Source of the DNA: Pontibacterium sp.
Lineage (GTDB): Bacteria; Pseudomonadota; Gammaproteobacteria; Pseudomonadales; Balneatricaceae
Direction of reading: 5' to 3'
Assembly (NCBI GenBank): GCA_049599735.1
Contig: JBMYOX010000007.1
Span: 7,650 to 71,649, forward strand
Length of the DNA stretch: 64,000 nt
The notes beneath the pieces are model-generated. The model did no database searches and had not been told where the DNA came from. It saw nothing but the letters and a program-made list of their open reading frames with translations. The number at the start of each line of letters is the position of its first letter. Within the stretch, counting starts at the first letter, position 1. Of the stretch, positions 24,264 to 46,794 are shown one piece after another. A program made the position numbers and the translations under genes.

Positions 24264-24278
24264 AGTGCTATCCTCTCC

Positions 24279-25997: not shown

Positions 25998-26033
25998 CCT
26001 AATATTCCTCTCTTGCATCACCCAAAACGGGCA

Positions 26034-26396: not shown

Positions 26397-26481
26397 TGTT
26401 ACTCCTCCGGAACTGTCTTTCTGACAGGATTTATTATTTTTATAAGAAAGGCCCTTATAACAGGGCCTTATTTACTTATGC

Positions 26482-30349: not shown

Positions 30350-31141
30350 CTATTCTTTATTCGACATCACACCAGACTGGTAAAGCATGGCAATAAGCTG
30401 TGTTTTATTTCTGGCCTTAAAAATTTTCTTTGCACGGGTAATATGATACGTAACCCCTTCTTCTGTCAGTGCCAGATGATAAGCAATCATTTTTACCGAC
30501 ATCCCATCCGCCGTCATTTTCAAAACTTGCCTACAAGTTTCAGAAAATATTGAATGCCTGATATAAGGGTTTGTCTCTCTTTCACCACCCAGTTGCAGTA
30601 ATTTATGGCAACGCTCTAATAACGGTAATAAAACACCCGATATTCGATGATAAATTTCCATAAACTGCTCACGGGGCAATCCGTGATAAAGACCAAAATA
30701 ATTAAACCAATACTTATCCTGACGCCCGCCAACCGGCACATAGGCACGGGAATACACATCATACCTTTCCCAGAACTGGTCAACCTGTGGCGAGGTACTA
30801 TTACGCTCAGCCTGTACAATTAAAGGCTGAGATGCCCCGGGTAAAACCTGCCATAAAGGATCAGCTAAAGCGATTTCCTTATAATAACGACTCACCACCT
30901 GTTCCGGCATTGATCCCTGAGTATCAACGCCATAACTGCGCTTTGACAGCGAAAACTGAGACTCAGGGGCACCCAGGCTACGTGGCACTGATGAATAAGT
31001 GAAGTAAATAAAATCCAGTTGCTTTAAAATGATTTGCAGCTCAGCAAAAAGTTTTTCCCAACTGCACTCGCTCACCAGTACATTAGCGCTAGAAGCTACC
31101 GATGATGTTCCCTGCCTGAGAATATGCGATTGATCATTCAT
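30350..31141 (-). CDS. LuxR-family regulator with autoinducer-binding-like N-domain (LuxR solo)
   Basis: C-terminal LuxR HTH (TADGMSVKMIAYHLALTEEGVTYH...ARNKTQLIA); N-domain keeps Y..DP; no luxI nearby. Confidence 0.85.
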   Translation of the reverse strand: MNDQSHILRQGTSSVASSANVLVSECSWEKLFAELQIILKQLDFIYFTYSSVPRSLGAPESQFSLSKRSYGVDTQGSMPEQVVSRYYKEIALADPLWQVLPGASQPLIVQAERNSTSPQVDQFWERYDVYSRAYVPVGGRQDKYWFNYFGLYHGLPREQFMEIYHRISGVLLPLLERCHKLLQLGGERETNPYIRHSIFSETCRQVLKMTADGMSVKMIAYHLALTEEGVTYHITRAKKIFKARNKTQLIAMLYQSGVMSNKE

Positions 31142-31640
31142 CACAGGCATACCTCGCAACAGAAAGACCTGGTGCTATATATCTTGAGGATTTCCACCCA
31201 ACATTCCACTGTTTAAAACTCTCCAATAATAGAATACCAGCTCACCATATACCCCGGCGATGCAAACCCGGCTACTAATCTCTGTCAGGTGTTATGCCAG
31301 CATTTGCCAAGCAATAATCGCACCATTAACAGGCTATTACCAGGCAATAAAAACAAATAAAAATTTAATTCATAAAATAATTCTTAACAACATACTTTTC
31401 AATATTTCAAATAAAAATCAAATCAAAAAACAAATCCCCCCTTAAACACTGCGTCTTATTGATATAAAACAAAGAATATAAAACATGGTTTCCAACACCC
31501 GTACTCCGGACACTGCAAAAAAGTCCGGGGATTTATCAAAGAACCGGTAATCTACAATTCAAAGATGTAATACGGTGATGACATAAGCATTTAGCACCAC
31601 CGTAACCTTTTATCGCCACCTCAACATCAGGGCTTATCCG

Positions 31641-34600
31641 TCAGACGTTGTTCAATTCCTCCAGTTCAGCGGTCCAGCTTCCATCGACATCTCCCAACAA
31701 GATACCCACGTAGTCATATGCGGTCTGGCCTTCATTAAATACCACATCCGGGGCCGGGGCCGGAAACACCTCATTCGAAGCACGAGACGGATCATCAGCA
31801 AGCTGCGCCTGCTCAGTCTCTGTCAGTGCAGAAACAAACTGCCAGCCATCCAGCTGTATCAGACCAACGGCCTGGCGCGCAATCATACTGGCATCTGCAG
31901 CACTGATAACTCCGTTCCCATCAACATCTGCTGCCATTTTTTGATATTCATTGCTGCCTTCGATCAGACCTACTGCGAGGCGAGCGGCAGTTGAGGCATC
32001 AGCAGCGGATACTGCAGCCACATAATCCTCACTTACCGGCGACGGGTGTTCCATTTCCAGCTCATAGGCCGCCTCGCTATTAAGCCCGCTAAAATTAAAA
32101 CTCCCGTCTTCTTCTGATACCAGAACAGACACTGGCTCACCATTTTCCCGCAGAGTAATATCCGTTGCGCTGATTTTCTGTGAATTATCACTCCAGTACG
32201 CAATAGAACCCGCAAGATCAAACGTAACAGAGGTATCCGTCATATCCTTCTGCACATCAATATTCAGCGTATCCCGGATCAGACCACCCTTCCCGTCACT
32301 AACTTCGTAGACGAAGCTATCCATACCCACAAAATCCTGCTCAGGGGTATAAGTAAAGCCCCCCTCTGAGTTAAGTTCCAGAGCACCATGAACGGGGGCA
32401 CCTCCGTCGGACAACCCATATATCAGGCTGTCACCATCAGCGTCTGTCGCGGTTAGCTGACCTGTCAGCGTCTCACCTTCGGTGATTTTGCCGCCCTGAG
32501 TAATATCCAGGTTAAAGAGCTGACCCCGTATTGCCGACTCACTGGTATCATCTCCGGTCTGGCTTCTGTCTTCCCAAAGCACAACGATACGACCACCCGA
32601 TAACTCTGTCACTACCGGCTCAAGCTGAGCACCGGTTGTTGTGCTGTTAGCCAGGAATTCTTCACCCGCCTTGCTGCCATCAGACATAAACCGCTGGCCA
32701 CGTACCGCATAGCTGCTGGTGTCCTCACCAGTAAAGCTGAGGTCCTGCCAGAACGCGATAAAACTGCCATCGGATAAGGCGGTTACTGACGGGTCTGACT
32801 GACTGCCTGAAAGGGTGGTGTTAACCAAAAATTCACCACCTGATTCACTGCCATCAGCGTTAAATACCTGGCCACGTACTGCGTGGCCATGAGGATCATC
32901 ATCACTGGTGCTATAGTCTGTCCAGAGCGCCACAAAACCACCATCCGCCAGTGACGTGACTACCGGGTCATTCTGGAGATAAGTGACTGTATTGTTTACC
33001 TGGAAGGCTTCATTGATTTTGCTGCCACCGGCACTAAATAACTGCCCCATTATCTCGAATTCGCCCACTGCACCACCGCTTTGACTGTTATCAGCCCAAA
33101 GCACCACAAAATTACCATTTGTCAGTGCGGTTACCGCAGGCACAGATTGCTGATCAGCGGTGATGCTGTTAACCAGTATCTCCCCACCTGTCAGACTGCC
33201 ATCTGCCGCAAACACCTGAGCACGCACATCGGCAATACCCAGCTCTTCGCCCACTTCAGACCAGACAGCCACAAAGCCACCATCAGACAGCCCGGCTACC
33301 TCAGGCTGACCCTGACCATTTGAAAGACTCTCGTTAACAATAAACTCACCATTAACAGGAGTGGCATTCTCGGTAAAGCGCTGAGCAACCACATAGCCAC
33401 TGGAAGCGTCCGACCACATAGCAATAAAGCCGCCATCTTCAAGCGCGCTCACTGCCGGAGCGGACTGGTTACCAGTGGTCGTGGTGTTGACCATAAATTC
33501 ACTGTCAACCGCGCTGCCATCTGCCGCAAAACGCTGACCACGCACCGCATAAACACTGGTATCTTCACCGCTCTGACTGTAATCAGACCAAAGTACAACA
33601 AATCCCCCACCGGTCAGAGCGGTGACCGCCGCAGAATGCTGATAGCTTTCCGTGGTACTGTTTACCAGGAATTCAGCACCCGTTTTGGACAGCGTTTCAG
33701 TGCGTAAGTACTCTATTTCAGGCGCATCGTTAACAGGATTAACCAACAGACTTGCGGTGGTAGCCACGGTGTCAGTGCCATCAGTGACCTGGTAGTTAAA
33801 CTGCACGTCACCGTTAAAGTCAGCCGTCGGGCTGAAGCTGTAGGTGCCATCGCCCTGATTGGTTAAAGCCCCCTGAGCAGTATCCGCCAGCGTAAGCCCT
33901 GTTACATTCAGCACATCACCGTCAGTATCACGGGCATTGATCAGCAGATCAGCCGTGCTGAAGGACAGGCTGCTGTCCTCAGCAATCGCAGACAACGTAA
34001 CAGGTGCGCTGACAACCGGGGCGTCGTTCGCCGGATTAACCAACAGACTTGCGGTGGTATCCACGGTGTCAGTGCCATCGCTTATCCGGTAGTTAAACTG
34101 CACGTCACCGTTAAAATCAGCCGTCGGGCTGAAGCTATAGGTGCCGTCGCCCTGATCCGTTAAAACACCCCGCGTGGCATCGGCCAGCCTTACCTGTGAC
34201 ACGTTCAGGTTATCGCCGTCTGCATCATGGCTATTGGCCAGCAGATCAGACGCACTAAAGAACGCCGTACTCTCCTCAGTAATCGCAGACAACGTAACAG
34301 GTGCGCTGACAACCGGGGCGTCATTAATCGGATTAACCAACAGACTTGCGGTGGTAGCCACGGTGTCAGTGCCATCAGTGACCTGGTAGTTAAACTGCAC
34401 GTCACCGTTAAAGTCAGCCGTCGGGCTGAAGCTGTAGGTGCCATCGCCCTGATTGGTTAAAGCCCCCTGAGCAGTATCCGCCAGCGTAAGCCCTGTTACA
34501 TTCAGCACATCACCGTCAGTATCACGGGCATTGATCAGCAGATCAGCCGTGCTGAAGGACAGGCTGCTGTCCTCAGCAATCGCAGACAACGTAACAGGTG

Positions 34601-37600
34601 CGCTGACAACCGGGGCGTCATTAACCGAGCTTATGATCAGAGGAAGAGAGCCCTGAACAACACCCTGTCCGTCGCTCACCGTATAACTAAAACTGTCGCT
34701 GCCAAAATAGTTCGCCGCCGGGGTATAAGTAAAACTGCCATCTGTATTTAAGACCAAAGTCCCATGGGCCGGTTCGCCCCCTGCTACCAGAGAATAGGTC
34801 AGGCTGTCATCATCAGCGTCTGTAGCAGTCAACTGACCTGCAAGCACTCCGTCTTCAAAGGTTATCAGTCCCTCAGTCACTTCCGTTTCAAAAAGCTGAG
34901 CGCGAATTGCAGAAGCACCCTGATCAGCATCTTTCCAAAACGCAACCAAACCACCATCATTCAGGGCAGCCACGGCTGGCAGAAGCTGGTTGCCGGTGGT
35001 TGTGCTGTTGATAAGAAGTTCCGGCCCGTTCAGACTGCCATCGGCCGAAAACCGCTGACCACGTACTGCATAACCACTGACATCCTCTCCGCTTTGACTA
35101 TTATCATGCCAGAGTGTCATAAAACCACCATCTGTCAGGGCTGTTACCGACGGCCCTGACTGGTTACCAGCAGTGGTTGTATTCACCTGAAATTCATTGT
35201 TTATTTTTGCACCATCAGCACTGAACAACTGCCCGCGCACCACAAGACCGCTTCCGTCATCGCCATCAGCCTTGTGATTATTATCCCGCCAGGTCACCAC
35301 GAAGCCATCGTCCGCCAGGGTGGTTACAACCAGATCTGAGTGACTAACCCCGGCAGCAATGCTGCTTACCAGAAACTCCTCTCCCAGGCGGCTACCGTCT
35401 GCCTCATACAACTGGCCACGTACCGCAGTCATCATGGAAGTGCTATCACCGGGACTCCAGTCCCACCAAACTGCTACAAAACCACCTCCGGACAACGAAT
35501 CAACAGAGGGCTGAGCCTGGTGGCTATAAATGGTACTGTTCACCAGGAACTCAGTCCCGGACGGGCTACCGTCCGCTGCAAAACGCTGACCACGTACGGC
35601 ATCATATGAGGTATCTTCGCCACTTTGACTCGTATCACGCCAAAGAGCGACAAAACCACCATCAGATAAGCCGGTTACAGCAGGTTCATACTGGAAGTTA
35701 CTGGTTGTACTGTTAATCAGAAATTCTTCACCTGAGCGAGTGGCATCCGCCGTAAACCGCTGACCCCGCACAGCCGCGCCGCTGCTATCCCCGTTACTCT
35801 CGCTGTCATCCTGCCAAACTGCGACAAACCCGCCATCAGATAAAGCCGAGATCGCGGGATCCTGCTGACTATTAACCGTGGTACTGTTTACCAAAAACTC
35901 TTCACCCGATAAGCTGCCATCAGCCATAAACAACTGACCACGAATCGAATAACCACTGTTATCATCGCTTGTATTTTTATAATCCATCCAGATGGAAACA
36001 AAGCTGCCATCTGCCAGGGCTGTTACCTGAGGGTGAGCCAACCACTCTCCCCTTAAATTACTGCTTACCAGCAACTCGTCGCCCGTTTTAAAAAATGCCT
36101 CCGTCTGAAGGGGCTGTATTTCAGGCGCATCGTTAACCGGATTAACCAACAGACTTACGGTGCTATCAACGGTGTCAGTGCCGTCAGTGACCTGGTAGTT
36201 AAACTGCACTTCACCGTTAAAGTCAGCCGCCGGGCTGAAGCTGTAGGTGCCGTCGCCCTGATTGGTTAAAACCCCCTGATCAGTATCCGCCAGCGTAAGC
36301 CCTGTTACACTAAGCACATCACCGTCTGCATCACTGGCATTGACTAACAAATCAGCCGTACTGAAGGACAGGCTGCTGTCCTCATCAATGGCAGGCAAAG
36401 TCACAGGGGCACTGATTTGTGGTACTTCGTTATCAATATTGACGGTGATATAAAGCGTGTTTTGAATTACACCATTGCCGCTTTCACGCACTTCGTAGGT
36501 AAAGCTGTCAACGCCGTTGTAGTCCGGATCAGGGGTATAGGTAAAACCACCCTCTGCATTGAGCTCCAGGGTACCGTTCTCAGGCTGGCCATCGGCACTT
36601 AGTTGGTAGATCAGGCTGTCACTGCGGGCACCCGTATCGTTGAGGTGACCAGTCAGTACGCTGTTTTCGGTGGTTTCCAGGGCGTTTGCTGCGACAAAGA
36701 GCTGCCCGCGAACGGCCAGGCCTTCTGTATCGCCGCCACTGGCACTGCTGTCTTCCCAAAGCGCAAGTACACGGCCGTCATTCAGCGCTGACAGAACGGG
36801 GGTCTGCTGGTCATCGCTGGTTGTGGTGCTCAGGATAAATTCGCCACCGGTTTTAGTGCCGTCTGTATCAAAAGCCTGTGCACGCACTAATTTGCCTTGT
36901 CCGCCAATACCGGCCGCATTCAGATCCATCCAGGCAACCACAAAACCACCGCCAGGCTGTGCTACAACTGAGGGGGTAAACTGGAAGCTGGCAGTGGTGC
37001 TGTTGACCAGCAGTTCTTCACCCACTTTTATGCCTTGCGCATCGAACTGCTGACCGCGTATTGCCGTGCCCTCTGTATCACCGCCGGTAGCACTCCAGTC
37101 TTCCCAGACAGCAATAAAGCCACCGGTATCGAGTGCTGCAACGGTGGGTTCGGACTGATAACCGGCAGTACTGGTATTGATCTGAAGCTCAGCGCCCGAT
37201 TTGTTGCCCATGCTATCAAACAGCTGACCGCGTACGGCGCTGCTATCCTGATCCGGACCTGTCAGGCTGTAATCCTGCCACAAGGCGACAAAACTACCGT
37301 TTGCCAGCGCAGTGATCGCGGGACCTTCCTGGTTACCGGCGCTCAGGTTGCTGATGATAAATTCGTCACCGGTTTTACTGCCATCAGCCGCGAAGCGCTG
37401 ACCCATAACATTTGTACCCAGGGTAGCGTTCTCACTCCAGTCCATCCACAGGGCGACAAAGCCACCATCGGCCTGCGCGGTGACGGTGGCGGTGCTCTGG
37501 TAGCCGGCTGTAGTGGTATTTACCAGGAATTCGCTACCCTGCCGGGTGCCGTCTGCGGTAAATAGCTGCCCTCTCACAGCAGTGCTATCGGCATCCTCAC

Positions 37601-40600
37601 CCGTCTGGCTCCAGTCGGTCCAGAGCGCCACAAAACCACCCTCTGCCAGGGCAGTAACGGTGGGGGCTTCCTGATTACTGGCACTGCTGCTGTTAACCTG
37701 AAAAGCTTCACCCAGTAAGGTGCCGTCATCTGCAAACAGCTGACCTGTAATAGCACTGCCCTCACCGTCGCCGGAGGCCGGGTTAGCATCGGTCCAGAGG
37801 GCCACAAAACCCCCGCCCGATAATGCCGTGACTGTCGGCGCTGTCTGATCACCCGCCGTGTCTGTGTTCACCAGGAACTCAGCGCCTTCCTTGATCAGGT
37901 AACCCGGCTGCAGTTCGGCCAATGCTTCGCTGCGGGCCTGAATATTGATCACACTGGATGCGGTTGTCGTCTGTGCGCCGGTGCCATCCGTATCGGCATC
38001 GGTCACACTGAAACTCAGGGTTCTGCTGTCGCTGAGTGCCGTCGGATTCTGGCCACCCTGATAAGTCACGCTCTGCAGTAACTGTTGATACTGCGCCAGG
38101 CTGCCCGGCCCACTCAGGGTAAGGACGCCGCTTGTTGCATCGTACCGGGCACTGATACCCGTATCCGCAGTATCCACCGCCAGCACATCCCCTGCGGTAA
38201 AACCCTCACTAATGGTGATGCTGGCACTCGCCATCTGTGCATCATCGATATCATTCAGGCTCAGCACGACCACCGCCGACACAGCTTCACTGCCTTCGGT
38301 ATAGATTAAGGGCTGCTGGGCTACAAAATAATTAAAATCAAAATTATTCGGGTCAGTCGGAAAGTCATTGGGGTCAATCGGCGAGCTACCCGACGGGCTT
38401 AAATCCGAGACCTGAGTTAATGCCCCGGTCACAGGATCATAAGACCAGAGTTCATTACTCTCTCCGTTACCCCACCAGGTTGTGGCGGTAAAGTAAACAA
38501 TACCGTTCTGATCGGTTATAAATCGCGTGTTGGCGTCGCCGCTACCGGGAATATCTCCCAGCATCTGCAGTGTATTAACCTCGGGATCATAAACCCAGGG
38601 CTCCTCACCGCTGCCACCATTGGCACCAAAATAGAGACGGTTGTCCAGTACAAATGAAGAGAACTCACCGGGGTTTGAGCTGCCGCTGCCTGGGTTAATA
38701 TCTCCCACGAACAACACGCTGTTCTGGGCAGAGTCATAGGCCCAGAGCTCAATACCCGCGCTGCCGTTATCGGCACTGAAATAGAGCGTATTGTCGATCA
38801 CACCTAAAATTCGACTCAGGGAATCTCCGGCCCCCGCGTTCAGGTCAGTCAGCAGCTGAATCGAAGGGGCTGAGGGATCATAAGCCCAGAGTTCCTTACC
38901 GACCACAGCATGATCGGCCATAAAATAAATGATGCCGTTCATCCCGGTCAGGGAGACTGGCGTTGAGTCCGGGCTACCGGGATTAAGGTCAACCACCATC
39001 TGCAGACTGTTATTGGCCGGATCATATGACCAGAGCTCGTTACCGGCCGCATCGCTGCTGTCCTGGAAGTAAAGCTTGCCATTAAAAACGGACAGTGAAT
39101 GAGCACTCTCATTACCTGATTGAAAATCAAGCACTTTCTGGGCCTGATCGGTCGCGGAGTCAAGCCGCCACAGGCTGCTGCTGTGATCTTCATCGCGAGC
39201 CGTAAAATAAAGCTGGCCTGCCAGTTCGGTAAAATTACCCGGGTTGGCATCCCCTTCACCAACAACCAGGTCAGCAACCTGCTGACTTTCCTGCGTGAAC
39301 GGATCATAAGACCAGAGTTCGTTACCGGTCACCGCGTCATCACCTGGAAAGTAGAGTTTTCCGGCAAACTCCGTGTAACCACGGGCCATGGAAAATGCGC
39401 CGCCCTCATTGGGTGTCGCAATTTTCCAGGCACGGTTAGCCGCCGGTGAATAGGCCCAGAATGAGGTGCTTTCGCTGCCGTCTTCAGTCGGCTCACGCAT
39501 CCGGAAGATAAACGCCGTATCACCCACAATTAACGCCGGGGCATCGTTAACACCACTGACCGTCAGTGATACCGAGGCCAGAGTGACACCACCCTGTCCA
39601 TCGCTGACCTGGTAGGTAAAACTGTCATTGCCAACAAAATCCGGCTCAGGGTTATAGGTATAACTGCCGTCTGCATTAAGTAATAAAGTACCGTGCGCGG
39701 GCTCGCCATCCTGCGCCAGGGCATAAGACAGGCTATCACCATCCATATCGGAGGCAACCAGCTGGCCGGTAAGGGGCGTATCTTCAACCGCTTCCGCATC
39801 AGCCGGAAGCGTCAGCTGGAGTAACTGACCACGGATTGATGATTCACTGGTGTCCCCGCCCGTCTGACTTCTGTCTTCCCAGAGCGCCACCACACTGCCA
39901 TCAGCCAGCTCCGCAACCACCGGAGCACCCTGATAACCCTTTGTGGTCGAGTTCACCAGAAACTCTTCACCCACCGGTGTGCCATCAGCGGCAAACTGTT
40001 GAGCGCGTACTGCCTGATTACTGTTATCTGCACCGGTAAAACTGGAATCCTGCCAGAGTGCAATAAAGCCCCCATCAGATAATCCCGCCACAGCCGGTTT
40101 ATACTGGCTGCTTGTAACCGTAGTGTTTACCAGAAACTCATCCGCGACTTTGCTACCGTCCGCCGCAAACAGCTGACCGTGTACCGCTTGGGCATGAGGG
40201 TCATCACCACTCTGACTATAATCGGTCCAGACTGCAACAAAACCGCCATTGGCCAACGCACTGACCGATGGCTCAGTCTGACCACCCGGGGTCGTACTGT
40301 TTACCAGGAACTCATCACCTGTCTGGCTACCATCCGCGGCGAACGTCTGGCCACGCACGGCATAACTACTGGTGTCATCCTCACTCTGACTCCAGTCCGT
40401 CCACAGCACAGCAAAACCGCCTGTGGTCAGGGCCGTCACAGCAGGTTCGGTCTGATTATTGGTGACGATACTGTTTACCTGAAATGCCTCACCCAGCGGC
40501 GTGGCATCCGCTGCAAAGACCTGCCCATGAATGTCAGCAGCGCCATCCTCTTCGTTCACCTGGGCCCAGGTCGCCACAAAACCGCCCCCGGACAACGTGG

Positions 40601-43600
40601 TTAGTTTCGGAATACCCAGAATATCGAGTACAAACTCCTCATTCACCGGGCGAGCATCAGCATCAAATAACTGCCCCCGTATGCTCGGGACATCCGGGTT
40701 AGCGGGGTCATTGATCCAAAGCGCGACAAAACCACCATTGTCCAGGGCCGTCACAGACGGGCTAGACTGATTATTCGCTGTGGTACTGTTAACGAGAAAC
40801 TCATCATTCACCGCACTGCCATCAGCTGCAAATAACTGGCCACGCACTGCGTAAAAACTGGTATCTCCCCCTGTCTGACTGTTATCCGACCAGAGCACCA
40901 CAAAATTACCATCGCTGAGAACTGTCACAACCGGGCTATGCTGATAACTGTTTGTGCTGCTGTTAACCAGGAATTCATCACCCGCTTTTACAAACAGTTC
41001 CGTTTGATGGCGGATAACCTCAGGAGCATCATTCACCGGATTAACCGTCAGGGTCGCGGTTGCCGCCACGGCAGCCGTGCCATCAGATACCTGATAGTTA
41101 AACGTCAGCTCTCCATTAAAATCTGCCACAGGAGTAAAGCTGTAGGTGCCGTCCGTATGCTCAATCAGGGTGCCCTGACTGTTATCTGTCAGGGTCAGTT
41201 GGGTCACGTTTAATGCATCACCATTTGCATCGCTGGCGTTGGCCAGTAACGCATCGGAACTGAAGCTGATGCTGCCCTCTTCGTCAATCGCAGGCAGTAC
41301 AACCGGCCCGCTTATCTCCGGCAACGCATTCGGCACAATGAAGGCATTAACCGTCAGGAAGACTGTATGCTCAAGCACACCGTTACCACTTTCCCGTACC
41401 TCGTAGGTAAAGCTGTCTTCACCCTCAAAACCCTGGGTCGGGGTGTAGGTAAAAGCACCGTCCTGCGCCAACACCAGTGTCCCGTTATCGGGCTGACCAT
41501 CGGCCGTGAGCTGATAAACCAAACTGTTGATGCCTGCCCCTGTCGCGTTGAGGTGACCGCTTAAGACCTCATCCTGTGTCACCTCAAGCGCCGCAGCCGG
41601 CATAAACATCTGGGCCCGTACGGCGCTACCATCAGTGTCGCCACCTGTGCCACTCTCATCCTGCCAGAGCGCGATAACACCGCCATTATCAAGCGCCGAT
41701 AAGCTGGGCATCTGCTGATCCCCGGCAACGGTGGTGCTCAGAACAAACTCACCACCGGTCATGCTGCCATCAGCACCGAATGCCTGCGCCCGCAGCGCAC
41801 TGCCAACGCCGTCCACACCGGACGGATTCAAATCCTTCCAGGACACGACAAAACCGCCATCGGATAAGCCCACAACAGCCGGCGTAAACTGATAACCGGC
41901 GGTACTGCTGTTGATCAGTAACTCACTACCGAGTTGACCGCCCGCCGCATCAAAGATCTGGCCTCGGATGGCGCTACCTTCAGTGTCACCGCCTGATGCG
42001 CTCCAGTCTTCCCAAACCGCGACAAAACCACCCTCACTCAGGGCTGTCACAACCGGCTCTGACTGATAACCCGCCGTACTGGTGTTCACCTGAAATACGT
42101 CACCCAGAAGGCTGCCATCCGCCATAAACATCTGAGCCCGTACGGCACTGCCTTCGGTATCCTGACCCGCCAGGCTATAATCCTGCCAAAGCGCGACAAA
42201 ACCACCATCAGACAAGCCCGTCACCGTCGGGCCGTCCTGATTACCTTCGCTTGCGTTATCGATCAGGAATTCGTCACCGGTTTTACTGCCATCAGCCGTG
42301 AAGCGCTGACCCATAACATTTGTACCCAGGGTAGCGTTCTCACTCCAGTCCATCCACAGGGCGACAAAGCCACCATCGGCCTGCGCGGTGACGGTGGCGG
42401 TGCTCTGGTAGCCGGCTGTAGTGGTATTTACCAGGAATTCGCTACCCTGCCGGGTGCCGTCTGCGGTAAATAGCTGCCCTCTCACAGCAGTGCTATCGGC
42501 ATCCTCACCCGTCTGGCTCCAGTCGGTCCAGAGCGCCACAAAACCACCCTCTGCCAGGGCAGTAACGGTGGGGGCTTCCTGATTACTGGCACTGCTGCTG
42601 TTAACCTGAAAAGCTTCACCCAGTAAGGTGCCGTCATCTGCAAACAGCTGACCTGTAATAGCACTGCCCTCACCGTCGCCGGAGGCCGGGTTAGCATCGG
42701 TCCAGAGGGCCACAAAACCCCCGCCCGATAATGCCGTGACTGTCGGCGCTGTCTGATCACCCGCCGTGTCTGTGTTCACCAGGAACTCAGCGCCTTCCTT
42801 GATCAGGTAACCCGGCTGCAGTTCGGCCAATGCTTCGCTGCGGGCCTGAATATTGATCACACTGGATGCGGTTGTCGTCTGTGCGCCGGTGCCATCCGTA
42901 TCGGCATCGGTCACACTGAAACTCAGGGTTCTGCTGTCGCTGAGTGCCGTCGGATTCTGGCCACCCTGATAAGTCACGCTCTGCAGTAACTGTTGATACT
43001 GCGCCAGGCTGCCCGGCCCACTCAGGGTAAGGACGCCGCTTGTTGCATCGTACCGGGCACTGATACCCGTATCCGCAGTATCCACCGCCAGCACATCCCC
43101 TGCGGTAAAACCCTCACTAATGGTGATGCTGGCACTCGCCATCTGTGCATCATCGATATCATTCAGGCTCAGCACGACCACCGCCGACACAGCTTCACTG
43201 CCTTCGGTATAGATTAAGGGCTGCTGGGCTACAAAATAATTAAAATCAAAATTATTCGGGTCAGTCGGAAAGTCATTGGGGTCAATCGGCGAGCTACCCG
43301 ACGGGCTTAAATCCGAGACCTGAGTTAATGCCCCGGTCACAGGATCATAAGACCAGAGTTCATTACTCTCTCCGTTACCCCACCAGGTTGTGGCGGTAAA
43401 GTAAACAATACCGTTCTGATCGGTTATAAATCGCGTGTTGGCGTCGCCGCTACCGGGAATATCTCCCAGCATCTGCAGTGTATTAACCTCGGGATCATAA
43501 ACCCAGGGCTCCTCACCGCTGCCACCATTGGCACCAAAATAGAGACGGTTGTCCAGTACAAATGAAGAGAACTCACCGGGGTTTGAGCTGCCGCTGCCTG

Positions 43601-46310
43601 GGTTAATATCTCCCACGAACAACACGCTGTTCTGGGCAGAGTCATAGGCCCAGAGCTCAATACCCGCGCTGCCGTTATCGGCACTGAAATAGAGCGTATT
43701 GTCGATCACACCTAAAATTCGACTCAGGGAATCTCCGGCCCCCGCGTTCAGGTCAGTCAGCAGCTGAATCGAAGGGGCTGAGGGATCATAAGCCCAGAGT
43801 TCCTTACCGACCACAGCATGATCGGCCATAAAATAAATGATGCCGTTCATCCCGGTCAGGGAGACTGGCGTTGAGTCCGGGCTACCGGGATTAAGGTCAA
43901 CCACCATCTGCAGACTGTTATTGGCCGGATCATATGACCAGAGCTCGTTACCGGCCGCATCGCTGCTGTCCTGGAAGTAAAGCTTGCCATTAAAAACGGA
44001 CAGTGAATGAGCACTCTCATTACCTGATTGAAAATCAAGCACTTTCTGGGCCTGATCGGTCGCGGAGTCAAGCCGCCACAGGCTGCTGCTGTGATCTTCA
44101 TCGCGAGCCGTAAAATAAAGCTGGCCTGCCAGTTCGGTAAAATTACCCGGGTTGGCATCCCCTTCACCAACAACCAGGTCAGCAACCTGCTGACTTTCCT
44201 GCGTGAACGGATCATAAGACCAGAGTTCGTTACCGGTCACCGCGTCATCACCTGGAAAGTAGAGTTTTCCGGCAAACTCCGTGTAACCACGGGCCATGGA
44301 AAATGCGCCGCCCTCATTGGGTGTCGCAATTTTCCAGGCACGGTTAGCCGCCGGTGAATAGGCCCAGAATGAGGTGCTTTCGCTGCCGTCTTCAGTCGGC
44401 TCACGCATCCGGAAGATAAACGCCGTATCACCCACAATTAACGCCGGGGCATCGTTAACCGGGTTAACCGGCAGACTTGCGGTGGCATCCACGGTTTCAG
44501 TGCCGTCAGAGACCTGGTAGTTAAACAGGACTTCTCCGTTAAAGTGCGCCGCCGGGCTGAAGCTGTAAGTACCATCGCCGTTATCCGTTAATACACCCTG
44601 CGTGACATCAGCCAGGCTCAGTTGTGTCACGCTCAGGTTATCGCCATCTGCATCACTGGCATTGATTAACAAATCAGCCGTACTGAAGGACAGGCTGCTG
44701 TCCTCATCAACAGGAGGCAAGCTTACAAACTCACTGACAACCGGTACATCATTAACCGGGCTGATGGTCAGAGAAAGAGAGCCCTGAACAACACCGCCCT
44801 GCCCGTCACTAACTGTATAACTAAAGCTGTCACTGCCAAAATAGTGCGCGGCCGGGGTATAAGTAAAACTGCCATCGGCATTTAAAACCAGGGTACCGTG
44901 AGCCGGAGCCCCCCCGTCCGCCAGGGAGTAGGTCAGGCTGTCACCATCAGCGTCTGTCGCGGTCAACTGGCCTGTCAGCACTGTGTCTTCCGTAATTTCC
45001 ACCTCTGACGTTGTGCCTAATTTAAACAACTGACCTCGCACAGCCTTACCACTGGTATCATCACCGCTGTTACTGCCATCCGTCCAAAGTGCCACGAACC
45101 CGCCATCGGATAACACTGTCACTGTGGCCTCAAACTGGTCTCCGGCACTCGTGCTATTCACTAAAAACTCATCATCGATGAAACGACCATCATCTCCAAA
45201 CCTCTGGCCACGCACTGCATAAGCGTCATTACCCGCTTCACTATGATCCTGCCAAAGTACAACAAAACCACCCTCATCCAACGCAGTAACGGCCGGTTTT
45301 CGCTGCGTAGAGGTTGTCGTGGTATTCACCAAAAATTCGCCCCCTACTTTAGTGCCATCTGCCAGAAATACCTGCCCCCGCACCGCAAAACCGCTGGTGT
45401 CACCCCCACTGCTACTTTCATCGGTCCAGATGGCTACAAAACCACCCTTGGTCAGTGCTGTAATCGAGGCTTCATGCTGCCTGCCTGCCGTTGTACTGTT
45501 CACCAGAAATTCTGTTCCCAGTGGGCTACCATCGTCCATGAACTGCTGCCCACGCACGGAAAAATACTCCGTATCACCACCTGTTTTACTTTCATCCGTC
45601 CAGAGTACAACAAAGCCACCCTCGACAAGGGCAGTCACTGACGAATCTCTTTGAATATTAGAGGTCGTGGAGTTCACCAAAAATTCATCACCTGATACCT
45701 GACCGTCAGATGAAAACAATTGGCCCCGCACAGCTTGTGCACTGCTATCTCCGCCGCTTCGGCTATTATCTGTCCAGACGATAACAAAGCCACCATCATT
45801 TAAAGCGGTGACTGCTGGCTCATTTTGAGCGCGCAACGTTGTGCTATTAACCAGAAATTCATCACCTAGCTTGTTCGCCTCAGCCCCGAACATCTGCGCA
45901 CGTACCGCACCTAAACTTCTGTCACCACCACTGCCACTTGTATCCGTCCAGGTTACAACGAACCCCCCCCCTGCCAATGCAGTAGCATCTGCGTCACTTT
46001 GATAACCTTGGGTAATAGTATTCACCAAAAATTCATCATCAAACGCAGAACCATCAGCCGTAAATAACTGCCCCCGAACGGCACTTGAGCTGCTATCAGG
46101 CTCGTTATGACTATAATCCGTCCAGATCGCAACAAAACCGCCACCCGCCAATGCCACCACAACCGGGTCAAACTGATCATTTGCTGTAGCACTGTTTACC
46201 AGAAACTCAGTACCGGCCTTTACAAAGACATCAGACTGGAGGCCCGTTGCCTCAGGCATGGTATTAGCGGTTTGTGAACTAGTATAGAGATCTGAGTTGA
46301 GGGTACTCAT
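31641..46310 (-). CDS. Giant (~4,890 aa) repetitive surface/adhesin-like protein
   Basis: One uninterrupted ORF; GGAGG RBS before MSTLNS (46310); 42 EFLVNST..Q..P.V.AL..GGFV..W.D repeats, two ELWxYDP domains, Big_9/cadherin-like spacers (DADGDxLT, VNPVNDAP), dockerin-like C-terminus. Confidence 0.92.
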   Translation of the reverse strand: MSTLNSDLYTSSQTANTMPEATGLQSDVFVKAGTEFLVNSATANDQFDPVVVALAGGGFVAIWTDYSHNEPDSSSSAVRGQLFTADGSAFDDEFLVNTITQGYQSDADATALAGGGFVVTWTDTSGSGGDRSLGAVRAQMFGAEANKLGDEFLVNSTTLRAQNEPAVTALNDGGFVIVWTDNSRSGGDSSAQAVRGQLFSSDGQVSGDEFLVNSTTSNIQRDSSVTALVEGGFVVLWTDESKTGGDTEYFSVRGQQFMDDGSPLGTEFLVNSTTAGRQHEASITALTKGGFVAIWTDESSSGGDTSGFAVRGQVFLADGTKVGGEFLVNTTTTSTQRKPAVTALDEGGFVVLWQDHSEAGNDAYAVRGQRFGDDGRFIDDEFLVNSTSAGDQFEATVTVLSDGGFVALWTDGSNSGDDTSGKAVRGQLFKLGTTSEVEITEDTVLTGQLTATDADGDSLTYSLADGGAPAHGTLVLNADGSFTYTPAAHYFGSDSFSYTVSDGQGGVVQGSLSLTISPVNDVPVVSEFVSLPPVDEDSSLSFSTADLLINASDADGDNLSVTQLSLADVTQGVLTDNGDGTYSFSPAAHFNGEVLFNYQVSDGTETVDATASLPVNPVNDAPALIVGDTAFIFRMREPTEDGSESTSFWAYSPAANRAWKIATPNEGGAFSMARGYTEFAGKLYFPGDDAVTGNELWSYDPFTQESQQVADLVVGEGDANPGNFTELAGQLYFTARDEDHSSSLWRLDSATDQAQKVLDFQSGNESAHSLSVFNGKLYFQDSSDAAGNELWSYDPANNSLQMVVDLNPGSPDSTPVSLTGMNGIIYFMADHAVVGKELWAYDPSAPSIQLLTDLNAGAGDSLSRILGVIDNTLYFSADNGSAGIELWAYDSAQNSVLFVGDINPGSGSSNPGEFSSFVLDNRLYFGANGGSGEEPWVYDPEVNTLQMLGDIPGSGDANTRFITDQNGIVYFTATTWWGNGESNELWSYDPVTGALTQVSDLSPSGSSPIDPNDFPTDPNNFDFNYFVAQQPLIYTEGSEAVSAVVVLSLNDIDDAQMASASITISEGFTAGDVLAVDTADTGISARYDATSGVLTLSGPGSLAQYQQLLQSVTYQGGQNPTALSDSRTLSFSVTDADTDGTGAQTTTASSVINIQARSEALAELQPGYLIKEGAEFLVNTDTAGDQTAPTVTALSGGGFVALWTDANPASGDGEGSAITGQLFADDGTLLGEAFQVNSSSASNQEAPTVTALAEGGFVALWTDWSQTGEDADSTAVRGQLFTADGTRQGSEFLVNTTTAGYQSTATVTAQADGGFVALWMDWSENATLGTNVMGQRFTADGSKTGDEFLIDNASEGNQDGPTVTGLSDGGFVALWQDYSLAGQDTEGSAVRAQMFMADGSLLGDVFQVNTSTAGYQSEPVVTALSEGGFVAVWEDWSASGGDTEGSAIRGQIFDAAGGQLGSELLINSSTAGYQFTPAVVGLSDGGFVVSWKDLNPSGVDGVGSALRAQAFGADGSMTGGEFVLSTTVAGDQQMPSLSALDNGGVIALWQDESGTGGDTDGSAVRAQMFMPAAALEVTQDEVLSGHLNATGAGINSLVYQLTADGQPDNGTLVLAQDGAFTYTPTQGFEGEDSFTYEVRESGNGVLEHTVFLTVNAFIVPNALPEISGPVVLPAIDEEGSISFSSDALLANASDANGDALNVTQLTLTDNSQGTLIEHTDGTYSFTPVADFNGELTFNYQVSDGTAAVAATATLTVNPVNDAPEVIRHQTELFVKAGDEFLVNSSTNSYQHSPVVTVLSDGNFVVLWSDNSQTGGDTSFYAVRGQLFAADGSAVNDEFLVNSTTANNQSSPSVTALDNGGFVALWINDPANPDVPSIRGQLFDADARPVNEEFVLDILGIPKLTTLSGGGFVATWAQVNEEDGAADIHGQVFAADATPLGEAFQVNSIVTNNQTEPAVTALTTGGFAVLWTDWSQSEDDTSSYAVRGQTFAADGSQTGDEFLVNSTTPGGQTEPSVSALANGGFVAVWTDYSQSGDDPHAQAVHGQLFAADGSKVADEFLVNTTVTSSQYKPAVAGLSDGGFIALWQDSSFTGADNSNQAVRAQQFAADGTPVGEEFLVNSTTKGYQGAPVVAELADGSVVALWEDRSQTGGDTSESSIRGQLLQLTLPADAEAVEDTPLTGQLVASDMDGDSLSYALAQDGEPAHGTLLLNADGSYTYNPEPDFVGNDSFTYQVSDGQGGVTLASVSLTVSGVNDAPALIVGDTAFIFRMREPTEDGSESTSFWAYSPAANRAWKIATPNEGGAFSMARGYTEFAGKLYFPGDDAVTGNELWSYDPFTQESQQVADLVVGEGDANPGNFTELAGQLYFTARDEDHSSSLWRLDSATDQAQKVLDFQSGNESAHSLSVFNGKLYFQDSSDAAGNELWSYDPANNSLQMVVDLNPGSPDSTPVSLTGMNGIIYFMADHAVVGKELWAYDPSAPSIQLLTDLNAGAGDSLSRILGVIDNTLYFSADNGSAGIELWAYDSAQNSVLFVGDINPGSGSSNPGEFSSFVLDNRLYFGANGGSGEEPWVYDPEVNTLQMLGDIPGSGDANTRFITDQNGIVYFTATTWWGNGESNELWSYDPVTGALTQVSDLSPSGSSPIDPNDFPTDPNNFDFNYFVAQQPLIYTEGSEAVSAVVVLSLNDIDDAQMASASITISEGFTAGDVLAVDTADTGISARYDATSGVLTLSGPGSLAQYQQLLQSVTYQGGQNPTALSDSRTLSFSVTDADTDGTGAQTTTASSVINIQARSEALAELQPGYLIKEGAEFLVNTDTAGDQTAPTVTALSGGGFVALWTDANPASGDGEGSAITGQLFADDGTLLGEAFQVNSSSASNQEAPTVTALAEGGFVALWTDWSQTGEDADSTAVRGQLFTADGTRQGSEFLVNTTTAGYQSTATVTAQADGGFVALWMDWSENATLGTNVMGQRFAADGSKTGDEFIISNLSAGNQEGPAITALANGSFVALWQDYSLTGPDQDSSAVRGQLFDSMGNKSGAELQINTSTAGYQSEPTVAALDTGGFIAVWEDWSATGGDTEGTAIRGQQFDAQGIKVGEELLVNSTTASFQFTPSVVAQPGGGFVVAWMDLNAAGIGGQGKLVRAQAFDTDGTKTGGEFILSTTTSDDQQTPVLSALNDGRVLALWEDSSASGGDTEGLAVRGQLFVAANALETTENSVLTGHLNDTGARSDSLIYQLSADGQPENGTLELNAEGGFTYTPDPDYNGVDSFTYEVRESGNGVIQNTLYITVNIDNEVPQISAPVTLPAIDEDSSLSFSTADLLVNASDADGDVLSVTGLTLADTDQGVLTNQGDGTYSFSPAADFNGEVQFNYQVTDGTDTVDSTVSLLVNPVNDAPEIQPLQTEAFFKTGDELLVSSNLRGEWLAHPQVTALADGSFVSIWMDYKNTSDDNSGYSIRGQLFMADGSLSGEEFLVNSTTVNSQQDPAISALSDGGFVAVWQDDSESNGDSSGAAVRGQRFTADATRSGEEFLINSTTSNFQYEPAVTGLSDGGFVALWRDTSQSGEDTSYDAVRGQRFAADGSPSGTEFLVNSTIYSHQAQPSVDSLSGGGFVAVWWDWSPGDSTSMMTAVRGQLYEADGSRLGEEFLVSSIAAGVSHSDLVVTTLADDGFVVTWRDNNHKADGDDGSGLVVRGQLFSADGAKINNEFQVNTTTAGNQSGPSVTALTDGGFMTLWHDNSQSGEDVSGYAVRGQRFSADGSLNGPELLINSTTTGNQLLPAVAALNDGGLVAFWKDADQGASAIRAQLFETEVTEGLITFEDGVLAGQLTATDADDDSLTYSLVAGGEPAHGTLVLNTDGSFTYTPAANYFGSDSFSYTVSDGQGVVQGSLPLIISSVNDAPVVSAPVTLSAIAEDSSLSFSTADLLINARDTDGDVLNVTGLTLADTAQGALTNQGDGTYSFSPTADFNGDVQFNYQVTDGTDTVATTASLLVNPINDAPVVSAPVTLSAITEESTAFFSASDLLANSHDADGDNLNVSQVRLADATRGVLTDQGDGTYSFSPTADFNGDVQFNYRISDGTDTVDTTASLLVNPANDAPVVSAPVTLSAIAEDSSLSFSTADLLINARDTDGDVLNVTGLTLADTAQGALTNQGDGTYSFSPTADFNGDVQFNYQVTDGTDTVATTASLLVNPVNDAPEIEYLRTETLSKTGAEFLVNSTTESYQHSAAVTALTGGGFVVLWSDYSQSGEDTSVYAVRGQRFAADGSAVDSEFMVNTTTTGNQSAPAVSALEDGGFIAMWSDASSGYVVAQRFTENATPVNGEFIVNESLSNGQGQPEVAGLSDGGFVAVWSEVGEELGIADVRAQVFAADGSLTGGEILVNSITADQQSVPAVTALTNGNFVVLWADNSQSGGAVGEFEIMGQLFSAGGSKINEAFQVNNTVTYLQNDPVVTSLADGGFVALWTDYSTSDDDPHGHAVRGQVFNADGSESGGEFLVNTTLSGSQSDPSVTALSDGSFIAFWQDLSFTGEDTSSYAVRGQRFMSDGSKAGEEFLANSTTTGAQLEPVVTELSGGRIVVLWEDRSQTGDDTSESAIRGQLFNLDITQGGKITEGETLTGQLTATDADGDSLIYGLSDGGAPVHGALELNSEGGFTYTPEQDFVGMDSFVYEVSDGKGGLIRDTLNIDVQKDMTDTSVTFDLAGSIAYWSDNSQKISATDITLRENGEPVSVLVSEEDGSFNFSGLNSEAAYELEMEHPSPVSEDYVAAVSAADASTAARLAVGLIEGSNEYQKMAADVDGNGVISAADASMIARQAVGLIQLDGWQFVSALTETEQAQLADDPSRASNEVFPAPAPDVVFNEGQTAYDYVGILLGDVDGSWTAELEELNNV
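33736..34619. repeat. Three tandem 297-bp (99-aa) cadherin-like units; units 1 and 3 appear identical over 290 bp
   Basis: GGATTAACCAACAGACTTGCGG recurs at 33736, 34033 and 34330; 33736-34025 matches 34330-34619. Confidence 0.9.
37360..39551. repeat. 2,192-bp direct repeat, copy A
   Basis: Matches 42268-44459 at offset 4,908 bp; six shadow ORFs in the track are identical at this offset; one mismatch seen (37391 C vs 42299 T). Confidence 0.93.
42268..44459. repeat. 2,192-bp direct repeat, copy B
   Basis: Same as copy A; boundaries read by eye (AATTCGTCACC start, CATCGTTAAC end). Confidence 0.93.
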
Positions 46311-46641
46311 TAAAAATCCTCCCTGACTCACCGGGCAAATAGCCAGTAAAGCATCCCATATATTCACTGCAGGCAGTAAGCATATGCAGACACTTCAGCT
46401 TCGGGGGCTGACTGCATCGGTCTTTGATTAATAAAGTTGGTTGAAATTTTTATCAACACGGACTATGTGTCTAAATATGGCCGTAACTCTATTGGCAACC
46501 TGATTTTTGATCAAGATACCCTATTTACCGGATACGTTAATCTTGACTAAGGTTCTGATGTTTATTCAATTATTCATAAAGCACTACTGAAATTCGTAGT
46601 ATTCAGACCCAAAACGCTTAACCGGCCATCCTGAATCAGCC

Positions 46642-46675
46642 AAAAAAAAAGCGGCTACCCTTTCGGATAACCGCC
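46642..46675 (-). terminator. Rho-independent terminator of the gcvP transcript
   Basis: Minus strand GGCGGTTATCC-GAAA-GGGTAGCCGC followed by 9 T. Confidence 0.9.
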
Positions 46676-46794
46676 TGAACGTCTTTTGCTATGCAGATTA
46701 AAACCTGCGATGTTTCCATCACAAATGATTACGGTCTGCGGCCGTAAACGCAGAGCCCGGGAAGCCGGAATGGCTGTCCCGGTTCAGATTAAAA

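What the first reader, a model, noticed from the sequence alone, without database searches (positions are those of the whole stretch)
31641..46310. Giant protein built from six exact seven-repeat blocks plus two ELW propellers on an Ig-like stalk
Seen: I count 7 copies of the ~60-aa EFLVNST..Q..P.V.AL..GGFV..W.D....VRGQ.F repeat in each of six blocks (~45020-46215, 41600-42800, 39820-40990, 36700-37890, 34890-36085, 32520-33680). Two ELWSYDP-repeat domains (~43230-44440, 38320-39530) and 1-4 Ig/cadherin-like spacers lie between them. The protein is very acidic and I saw no Cys. Inference: eight beta-propeller heads strung along the whole length rather than one tip adhesin, i.e. a multivalent lectin-like or Ca-dependent surface fibre.
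Basis: partly seen in the sequence, partly recalled or inferred. Interest (0 to 1): 0.78.

Follow-up and report, generated by a model that had tools for sequence, protein, structure and literature searches.

The report
Giant secreted protein with eight propellers
One 14.7-kb bacterial gene encodes a 510-kDa, extremely acidic, cysteine-free protein that strings eight ring-shaped "propeller" domains on short Ig-like spacers, and it probably leaves the cell through a type I secretion system; proteins of this build are common in public data, although the main propeller domain has no entry in the domain libraries searched.

Summary
The minus-strand ORF is 4889 aa from ATG 46310, which has a GGGAGGA ribosome-binding site. 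It contains 42 repeats of about 58 aa in six blocks of exactly seven, two ELWxxDGT domains and 12 Big_9/Cadherin_5 spacers in runs of 1-4. It has no Cys and a net charge of -524.

AlphaFold2 folds block 1 as 7 x 4 strands (pLDDT 95.8, pTM 0.94). The best TM-score in the PDB is to the seven-bladed CylK propeller. The ELW domain models as eight four-stranded blades.

The 58-aa repeat matches no Pfam, NCBIfam or PDB sequence, yet its family has about 40,000 clusters. These are mostly single propellers fused to RTX repeats, but many are multi-propeller giants, so the architecture is not unique.

New here: the protein has no RTX repeats. Its last ~200 aa (CarboxypepD_reg-like, dockerin-like, GDVDGSW tail) recur in three other proteins of the genome. 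One of these lies directly behind TolC/LssB/HlyD genes and one carries RTX repeats, which points to type I secretion.

The gene fills a gcvP-luxR slot that is 1.8-3.7 kb in same-genus genomes.

Ligand binding, calcium dependence and surface retention remain inferred. A perfect 2160-bp internal repeat could not be checked against reads.

The parts
31641..46310 (-). Giant gene: 4889 aa, 510 kDa, pI about 4, no Cys, no signal peptide or TM segment
   Evidence: P0122 has the same length
46311..46326 (-). Ribosome-binding site GGGAGGA 6 nt before the ATG
   Evidence: sequence read
46649..46676 (-). Intrinsic terminator of the upstream gcvP gene (12-bp stem, T9); the giant gene is therefore its own transcription unit
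45024..46232 (-). Propeller block P1, 7 blades of the EFLVN-type 58-aa repeat
   Evidence: AF2 pLDDT 95.8; Foldseek
44445..45023 (-). Two Ig-like spacers (Big_9 + Cadherin_5 / tandem-95)
43278..44444 (-). ELWxxDGT propeller 1, 8 repeats / 8 predicted blades
42813..43277 (-). Unassigned ~150-aa beta-rich module X1 (..LTLSGPGSLAQYQQLLQSVTYQGG..); no family match and a low-confidence model
   Evidence: similar modules in P0124 and P0129
41604..42812 (-). Propeller block P2, 7 blades
41001..41603 (-). Two Ig-like spacers
39819..41000 (-). Propeller block P3, 7 blades (blade 3 shortened to 50 aa)
39537..39818 (-). One Ig-like spacer (Big_9)
38370..39536 (-). ELWxxDGT propeller 2, identical to propeller 1
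37905..38369 (-). Module X2, identical to X1
36696..37904 (-). Propeller block P4, 7 blades; blades 1-3 identical to P2 and blades 4-7 59-69% identical
36099..36695 (-). Two Ig-like spacers
34890..36098 (-). Propeller block P5, 7 blades
33699..34889 (-). Four Ig-like spacers (Big_9 + 3 Cadherin_5), with an internal 290-nt exact repeat
32514..33698 (-). Propeller block P6, 7 blades
32244..32513 (-). One Ig-like spacer (Big_9)
31644..32243 (-). C-terminal module: small CarboxypepD_reg-like sandwich, dockerin-like helix-loop-helix (AADVDGNGVISAADASMIARQAVGL) and tail ending YVGILLGDVDGSW..LNNV; candidate type I secretion/attachment module
42300..44459 (-). Copy 1 of the perfect 2160-bp direct repeat
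37392..39551 (-). Copy 2 of the perfect 2160-bp direct repeat

Best explanation
The gene encodes a 510-kDa extracellular 'beads-on-a-string' protein. It has six seven-bladed beta-propellers of a very widespread domain family that none of the libraries searched models, and two eight-bladed ELWxxDGT propellers. These are separated by 12 Ig-like (Big_9/Cadherin_5) spacers. The protein ends in a ~200-aa C-terminal module that contains a dockerin-like Ca-loop/helix. There is no signal peptide, no Cys and no hydrophobic segment. The most likely export route is therefore C-terminus-first through a type I secretion system encoded elsewhere in the genome (contig C26), with the shared C-terminal module acting as the recognition/secretion element. 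Outside the cell, the strongly acidic chain is expected to fold and stiffen with Ca2+. The propellers would then act as many equivalent low-affinity binding heads, giving multivalent attachment to polysaccharide or particle surfaces. What is shown: the domain anatomy, the propeller folds (as predictions), the size of the family, the paralogous C-terminal modules and their link to T1SS genes, and the accessory nature of the locus. What is inferred: the secretion route, the Ca2+ dependence, ligand binding, and whether the protein stays on the cell.
For: Anatomy. Fold: AF2 of block 1 gives pLDDT 95.8 and pTM 0.94 with 7 x 4 strands. Foldseek gives CylK seven-bladed propeller TMq 0.75 and seven-bladed PLL lectins TMt 0.65-0.70; CylK is seven-bladed with Ca2+ at each blade junction (PMC8916777). 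The ELW part has pLDDT above 85 and 32 strands, and matches Kelch, TolB and DPP4 propellers. In 126 homologues every column conserved at 90% or more recurs with the blade period (E, N, Q, L, G, F, W, D). That means seven equivalent units and no single asymmetric active site. The listed short homologues are mostly propeller plus C-terminal RTX repeats, i.e. classical T1SS passengers. Secretion: there is no signal peptide or TM segment and no Cys. The last ~200 aa are 37-53% identical to the C-termini of three other proteins of the genome. One of these starts 71 nt after a TolC-like / LssB-type ABC (716 bits, cut-off 693) / HlyD (378 bits, cut-off 209) operon. Another carries RTX repeats. All also lack signal peptides, where the N-terminus is known. 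Ca2+: net charge is -524 and pI about 4. D[AT]DGD motifs occur in the spacers, and the dockerin loop DVDGNG is present. Accessory gene: the gcvP-luxR interval is 1.8-3.7 kb in six same-genus genomes against 15.6 kb here. GC is 53.9% against 48.7-49.8% in the flanks.
Against: No T1SS gene lies in the window. The protein has no RTX nonapeptides at all, which is unusual for a giant T1SS passenger. The C-terminal module is almost confined to this genome, so its role as a secretion signal rests on four paralogues only. No ligand, Ca2+ site or anchor was tested, and model coordinates could not be inspected for ring closure or pockets. The top Foldseek E-values go to enzymes (sialidases, GH43, lyases, CylK), so a catalytic role is not excluded.
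Confidence: 0.6

Rival explanations
1. The propellers are catalytic. The protein would be a tethered array of enzymes (glycosidase, lyase or CylK-like alkylating type) acting on extracellular polymers, not a binding fibre.
For: The best Foldseek E-values are to enzymes: sialidases, GH43/GH93 arabinofuranosidases, rhamnose-glucuronate lyase and CylK. One homologue sits beside a GH3/PA14 glycosidase and sugar-utilisation genes.
Against: There is no sequence similarity to any solved enzyme, even with a blade profile. All strongly conserved positions are blade-periodic, with no asymmetric catalytic set. The Asp-box motif is absent. CylK needs its RTX-like domain packed on the propeller face to form the active site, and that domain is missing here.
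Confidence: 0.12
2. The protein is retained on the cell by a cohesin-dockerin type interaction through its C-terminal dockerin-like module. It would be a cell-anchored fibre, and the four proteins sharing the module would dock to one scaffold.
For: Dockerin_1 scores above the Pfam cut-off when the tail is scanned alone (25.6 against 22.9 bits). The core is 37-40% identical to clostridial dockerins. The module is shared by four large secreted-type proteins.
Against: There is no Cohesin (PF00963) match anywhere in the genome at E<=0.1. Only one complete loop-helix is present, and the first helix lacks its loop. In the whole-protein scan the score is below cut-off (20.4).
Confidence: 0.12
3. The gene is real but the six-plus-two count is an assembly product. 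The perfect 2160-bp repeat lets a short-read assembler add or drop a 4.9-kb super-repeat unit (ELW-X-P-Ig-Ig-P-Ig).
For: The 2160 bp are 100% identical, with a knife-sharp 5' boundary and about 65% identity beyond the 3' boundary. The genome is a 136-contig draft.
Against: The sequence between the copies (P2 blades 4-7, P3) and after the second copy (P4 blades 4-7, P5) is clearly diverged. Both copies therefore have unique flanks, and the path A-R-B-R-C is the only one that uses every unique segment once. The frame stays open throughout.
Confidence: 0.12
4. The protein is a non-adhesive extracellular structural or protective polymer (matrix or S-layer-like scaffold, Ca2+ sink, or decoy for phages and grazers). 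Its repetitive propellers would serve self-association, not binding of foreign ligands.
For: The charge is extreme, the protein is very large, and the locus is accessory and species-specific. Cadherin-like domains of marine bacteria mediate homophilic contacts (cited in PMC12153261).
Against: Nothing is specific to this reading, and the same data fit adhesion. There is no anchor or lattice-forming domain.
Confidence: 0.14

Closest known systems
Multi-propeller giant proteins of the same (unmodelled) 58-aa repeat family, e.g. P0143 (4475 aa, 4 x 7 blades plus tandem-95 repeats) and P0123 (7213 aa, 12 matched stretches plus RTX) in public metagenomes and genomes
   Same: Same repeat in groups of about seven, separated by Ig-like or RTX spacers. 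Also Cys-poor, acidic and without a signal peptide.
   Different: The window protein adds two ELWxxDGT propellers, has no RTX repeats, and ends in a dockerin-like module. None of the 12 giants inspected has ELW motifs.
Single-propeller 'calcium-binding protein / Ca2+-binding RTX toxin-like protein' (N-terminal seven-repeat block + C-terminal HemolysinCabind), e.g. Tropicimonas marinistellae, Neogemmobacter tilapiae, Roseovarius amoyensis
   Same: The propeller block is 40-55% identical over 99% of its length.
   Different: These proteins are 430-700 aa with one propeller and RTX repeats. None has a known function.
CylK (PDB 7fh6/7RON), Friedel-Crafts alkylating enzyme of cylindrocyclophane biosynthesis
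   Same: Best TM-score (0.75) to a solved seven-bladed propeller. CylK binds Ca2+ at each blade junction and is fused to an RTX-like roll, much as most family members are fused to RTX repeats.
   Different: Only 11-12% identity, and no sequence-level match. The domain order is reversed, and the active site needs the RTX-like domain, which is absent here.
Photorhabdus PLL/PHL seven-bladed propeller lectins (PDB 8q82, 6rgg, 6t96)
   Same: Seven-bladed, pseudo-symmetric and multivalent sugar binders; TMt 0.61-0.70.
   Different: No sequence similarity. These are stand-alone ~340-aa proteins, and sugar binding is not shown for the window domain.
RTX adhesins exported by T1SS (LapA, MpIBP, SiiE, FrhA) and BapP of Pseudoalteromonas tunicata (PMC12153261)
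   Same: Giant, acidic and Cys-free, with Ca-binding Ig-like extender repeats and probable T1SS export. BapP also combines a propeller with Big_9/cadherin-like repeats.
   Different: No RTX repeats, no N-terminal retention module, no adjacent T1SS or LapG/LapD genes in the window, and propellers distributed along the chain instead of one distal ligand-binding region.
ELWxxDGT repeat proteins (NCBIfam TIGR04534)
   Same: The two ELW domains match at 322 bits. Homologues are 24-39% identical.
   Different: Many of the listed homologues are ~900-aa proteins carrying PF18962, and those with names are annotated as T9SS sorting-domain proteins. Here the domain is embedded in a probable T1SS passenger.

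Membership tests
Seven-bladed beta-propeller (fold class) | Seven tandem units, each a four-stranded antiparallel sheet | tested here: met
   7 repeats per block; the AF2 model has 28 strands in 7 groups of 4, pLDDT 95.8
Seven-bladed beta-propeller (fold class) | Closed toroid superposable on solved seven-bladed propellers | tested here: met
   TMq 0.75 to CylK and TMt 0.65-0.70 to PLL lectins. Ring closure itself could not be inspected because no coordinates were available.
CylK/BrtB-type alkylating enzymes | Detectable sequence homology to CylK | tested here: not met
   No PDB sequence hit with the block profile or the blade profile; 11-12% identity in the structural alignment
CylK/BrtB-type alkylating enzymes | RTX-like roll packed on the propeller face to form the active site | tested here: not met
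   No RTX or HemolysinCabind match in the protein
Asp-box (sialidase/sortilin) propellers | SxDxGxTW motif in the blades | tested here: not met
   The blade consensus is ..GGFVALWxDxSxxGxD..AVRGQxF, with no Asp-box
VCBS/FG-GAP (integrin-like) propellers | DxDxDG Ca2+ loop in the blades | tested here: not met
   Only 4 DxDxDG-like motifs in the protein, none inside a propeller block; no FG-GAP/VCBS Pfam hit on the blocks
ELWxxDGT repeat protein (TIGR04534) | Score above the curated cut-off; tandem ELWxxDG repeats | tested here: met
   322.3 bits against a cut-off of 65, 10 stretches; 8 repeats per domain
Tandem-95 repeat / Cadherin_5 / Big_9 extender domains | Score above the curated cut-offs | tested here: met
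   NF012211 804.6 bits (cut-off 90); PF17892 751.8; PF17963 506.9; 12 stretches each
RTX adhesin (LapA/MpIBP/SiiE type) | GGxGxD nonapeptide repeats before the C-terminal signal | tested here: not met
   0 GGxGxD motifs; no PF00353 match on contig C7 although 127 occur elsewhere in the genome
RTX adhesin (LapA/MpIBP/SiiE type) | N-terminal retention module / LapG-cleavable anchor | tested here: not met
   Only 26 residues precede the first propeller. LapG/LapD were not searched for.
RTX adhesin (LapA/MpIBP/SiiE type) | Dedicated T1SS genes next to the adhesin gene | tested here: not met
   The neighbours are gcvP, SHMT, luxR and enoyl-CoA hydratase; T1SS genes lie on contigs C26, C33 and C1
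Type I secretion substrate (general) | No N-terminal signal; C-terminal element shared with proteins linked to T1SS genes | tested here: met
   No signal peptide or TM segment. The C-terminal 200 aa are 42% identical to the protein encoded directly after the TolC/LssB/HlyD genes and 53% identical to an RTX protein. Actual export is not testable here.
Dockerin type I (PF00404) | Pfam score above the gathering cut-off | tested here: inconclusive
   25.6 bits against 22.9 when the last 200 aa are scanned alone, but 20.4 bits in the whole-protein scan
Dockerin type I (PF00404) | Two complete Ca-loop/helix segments and a cohesin partner | tested here: not met
   The first helix lacks its loop, and a lone GDVDGSW loop lies at the extreme C-terminus; no PF00963 match in the genome at E<=0.1

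The most novel reading that the evidence does not exclude
The 58-aa repeat defines a major, still uncatalogued family of Ca2+-dependent, seven-site lectin-like propellers, about 40,000 clusters in size. In this reading the organism has strung six of them, plus two ELW propellers, into an RTX-less fibre with more than 50 binding sites. The fibre would be exported and then re-attached to the cell by a lineage-specific C-terminal module (CarboxypepD_reg-like plus permuted dockerin) that serves as a common secretion-and-docking tag for at least four passengers of one LssB-type T1SS.
Probability: 0.2. Interest if true: 0.7.

Novelty: new variant of a known kind. Interest (0 to 1): 0.42.

Why it matters
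Two points go beyond this one gene. First, a propeller domain present in tens of thousands of bacterial protein clusters has no Pfam or NCBIfam model, no solved relative, and no paper that the motif searches could find. It usually sits on type I secreted proteins annotated only as 'calcium-binding'. Finding its ligand would give a function to a large block of secreted 'hypothetical' proteins in marine and soil bacteria. Second, this protein lacks RTX repeats, yet it shares a 200-aa C-terminal module with a protein encoded directly behind T1SS genes. It is therefore a convenient test case for whether large passengers can use type I secretion without RTX repeats, and for what a dockerin-like element does in a Gram-negative bacterium that has no cohesin. 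The gene itself is an ordinary example of the giant accessory adhesin-like proteins that vary between close relatives.

Tried and rejected
- Sequence searches of the propeller block and of a 39-blade profile against all PDB chains found nothing significant.
- Pfam and NCBIfam give no family for the 58-aa repeat.
- Full-text searches for the motif strings (EFLVNT, EFRVNT and others) and for ELWxxDGT found no relevant paper. The beta-propeller survey PMC9218822 does not mention RTX-linked families.
- I suspected cohesin-like segments in the C25 and C26 paralogues, but PF00963 finds nothing in the genome, so I dropped that idea.
- The search for related loci with the C-terminal tail found no relative. 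With the four-sequence profile it found only distant matches: two at the N-terminal end of small deltaproteobacterial proteins, a weak Saprospiraceae match, and ordinary clostridial dockerins.
- The search for homologous proteins on the module found mainly SdrD-B/CarboxypepD_reg repeats of planctomycetes and one weak RTX protein.
- The look-up of encoding contigs for the protein itself found no record.
- The neighbourhoods of two single-propeller homologues were uninformative.
- The organism's name could not be obtained. By kinship, only 6 of 9 genomes of the genus and 2 of 31 other related genera carry the domain.
Full report
**The gene.** Window 31641..46367 (minus strand) is one open frame of 4908 codons from a GTG. 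The codon for Met20 (ATG at 46310) is preceded at 6 nt by GGGAGGA. A 12-bp-stem terminator of the upstream gcvP gene lies at 46649-46676. The product is therefore most likely 4889 aa, transcribed on its own. That length equals P0122, the top hit of the representative search. The protein is 510 kDa with pI about 4. It has 670 D+E against 146 K+R, no Cys, no hydrophobic segment (best 19-residue Kyte-Doolittle mean 1.37) and no signal peptide.

An anchor scan on the ..VRGQxF motif finds 42 repeats, mostly 58 aa, in six blocks of exactly seven. The blocks lie at 45024-46232, 41604-42812, 39819-41000, 36696-37904, 34890-36098 and 32514-33698. Blocks are 43-79% identical to each other. Blades average 46-49% identity whether compared within or between blocks.

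Between the blocks lie 12 Big_9/Cadherin_5 (tandem-95) units, in runs of 2, 2, 1, 2, 4 and 1. There are also two ELWxxDGT domains (TIGR04534, 322 bits, cut-off 65). Each is followed by an unassigned ~150-aa module.

The chain reads: P1-Ig2-[ELW-X-P2-Ig2-P3]-Ig-[ELW-X-P4-Ig2-P5]-Ig4-P6-Ig-CT.

A perfect 2160-bp direct repeat (42300-44459 = 37392-39551) covers ELW, X and the first three blades of P2 and P4. Its 5' edge is abrupt. Beyond its 3' edge, identity falls to about 65% for another ~900 nt. This looks like an older duplication partly homogenised by a recent conversion or duplication.

**Fold of the repeat block.** I aligned block 1 with the other five blocks and 120 homologues. AlphaFold2 then gave pLDDT 95.8 and pTM 0.94, with 28 strands in seven groups of four. 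Foldseek against the PDB returns only propellers. The highest TM-score is to CylK (7fh6, TMq 0.75). CylK has a seven-bladed propeller with a Ca2+ site at each blade junction (PMC8916777). The seven-bladed PLL lectins reach TMt 0.65-0.70. The best E-values go to a protein of unknown function (5hx0), CylK and sialidases.

**Fold of the ELW construct.** The ELW construct (aa 642-1185) has pLDDT above 85 over its first ~380 residues, with 32 strands, i.e. eight blades. This matches eight sequence repeats: seven ELW motifs plus a degenerate SFWAYSP. It hits Kelch, TolB and DPP4 propellers. The X module is modelled poorly. I could not inspect coordinates for ring closure.

**What the 58-aa repeat is.**
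- It has no Pfam or NCBIfam match.
- It has no PDB sequence match, either with the block profile or with a 39-blade profile.
- It lacks the Asp-box motif and the DxDxDG motif.
- A profile of the six blocks finds 40,228 clusters (50% identity) at E<=1e-3 and 14,424 at E<=1e-30.

The listed short homologues (430-700 aa) are mostly one propeller followed by HemolysinCabind repeats. Where named, they are called 'calcium-binding protein' or 'Ca2+-binding RTX toxin-like protein'.

Many long homologues are multi-propeller giants. P0143 has 4 x 7 blades plus tandem-95 repeats and no RTX. P0123 has 12 matched stretches with RTX spacers. P0150 and P0154 have three or four blocks. I reached the same result independently.

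In the 126-sequence alignment, every column conserved at 90% or more recurs with the blade period. This argues for seven equivalent units, either structural or seven sites, and against one asymmetric catalytic centre.

**Export.** The window holds no secretion genes; the neighbours are gcvP, SHMT, serine dehydratase, a LuxR-type regulator and enoyl-CoA hydratase. The protein has no RTX repeats.

Its last ~200 aa consist of three parts:
- a small CarboxypepD_reg-like sandwich;
- a dockerin-like AADVDGNGVISAADASMIARQAVGL (Dockerin_1 at 25.6 bits, cut-off 22.9, when scanned alone);
- a tail ending YVGILLGDVDGSW..LNNV.

These 200 aa are 53, 42 and 37% identical to the C-termini of three other proteins of the genome. 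The C49 protein carries RTX repeats. The C25 protein carries the same propeller repeat. The C26 protein (23241-27815) starts 71 nt after a TolC-like gene, an LssB-type T1SS ABC gene (TIGR03375, 716.5 bits, cut-off 693) and a HlyD gene (TIGR01843, 378 bits, cut-off 209). None of those with a known N-terminus has a signal peptide.

The simplest reading is that this module marks a small set of passengers of that T1SS. The module is rare elsewhere, and no cohesin is encoded in the genome. A classical cohesin-dockerin anchor is therefore unsupported.

**Genomic setting.** In six same-genus genomes the gcvP and luxR orthologues are 1.8-3.7 kb apart. In the three intervals inspected, the gap holds an M48-like lipoprotein peptidase gene. 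Here the two genes are 15.6 kb apart and the giant gene fills the gap. The gene has 53.9% GC against 48.7-49.8% in the flanks. The propeller domain occurs in 6 of 9 genomes of the genus and in only 2 of 31 other related genera, and never as an equivalent six-block protein. It is an accessory, probably acquired, gene. The LuxR gene is a conserved neighbour of gcvP, not a dedicated partner of the giant gene.

**Mechanism.** This is inferred. The protein is exported C-terminus-first by the C26 T1SS. It folds with Ca2+ outside the cell; the evidence for that is the acidic chain, the D[AT]DGD motifs in the spacers and the CylK precedent for Ca2+ at blade junctions. Eight propellers on Ig-like spacers then offer many equivalent, probably weak, binding sites for multivalent attachment.

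Four rivals remain open: a catalytic array, a cohesin-independent docking role of the tail, a structural or protective polymer, and a mis-counted super-repeat. Each is listed with its odds in the rival explanations.

**Verdict.** However, the architecture belongs to a large, already visible class of giant multi-propeller secreted proteins. The new elements are the absence of RTX repeats, the mix of two propeller families, and the shared dockerin-like C-terminal module linked to a T1SS. Interest is moderate.

Noticed in passing
G000 contig C26:480-42416 (loci L007, L010): A type I secretion island. It holds RTX proteins of 565, 1262 and 4042 aa, then a TolC-like gene, an LssB-type ABC gene and a HlyD gene. 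These are followed by a 1524-aa protein with the shared C-terminal module, a 1331-aa RTX protein and an RTX frame open for more than 3481 aa that runs to the contig end.
   Followed up: partly
G000 contig C25:30073-34209 (locus L008): A 1378-aa paralogue with two arrays of the same 58-aa repeat separated by Ig-like units, ending in the same C-terminal module. It has no signal peptide.
   Followed up: partly
window 31160-31640 and 46368-46794; loci L016, L018, L019: In same-genus genomes the gcvP-luxR interval holds an M48-like (HExxH) lipoprotein peptidase gene on the opposite strand. G005 also has a small thioesterase-like gene there. Neither is present in this window, where the giant gene occupies the slot.
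   Followed up: partly
window 30350-31159 (-): The LuxR-family regulator downstream of the giant gene is a conserved neighbour of gcvP in 6 of 8 other genomes of the genus (62-69% identity), whether or not a giant gene is present. It is therefore unlikely to be a dedicated regulator of the giant gene.
   Followed up: partly
window 42813-43277 and 37905-38369 (-): A ~150-aa module after each ELW propeller (..LTLSGPGSLAQYQQLLQSVTYQGGQNP..RTLSFSVTD..) has no Pfam or NCBIfam match. Similar modules (..VEALVENLTYxNxSDDP..) recur between propellers in unrelated giants P0124 and P0129. AF2 confidence for it was low.
   Followed up: no
window 33699-34889 (-): A second exact internal repeat: 290 nt at an offset of 594 nt, within the run of three Cadherin_5 units. 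The first and third units are nearly identical.
   Followed up: no
window 21990-28819 (-): Downstream lie sulfur-oxidation-type genes: a SoxA/TsdA-like cytochrome, a molybdopterin oxidoreductase with a Mo-co dimerisation domain, a dihaem cytochrome c and a 5'-nucleotidase/SoxB-like metallophosphatase. This suggests a sulfur-oxidising marine bacterium.
   Followed up: no
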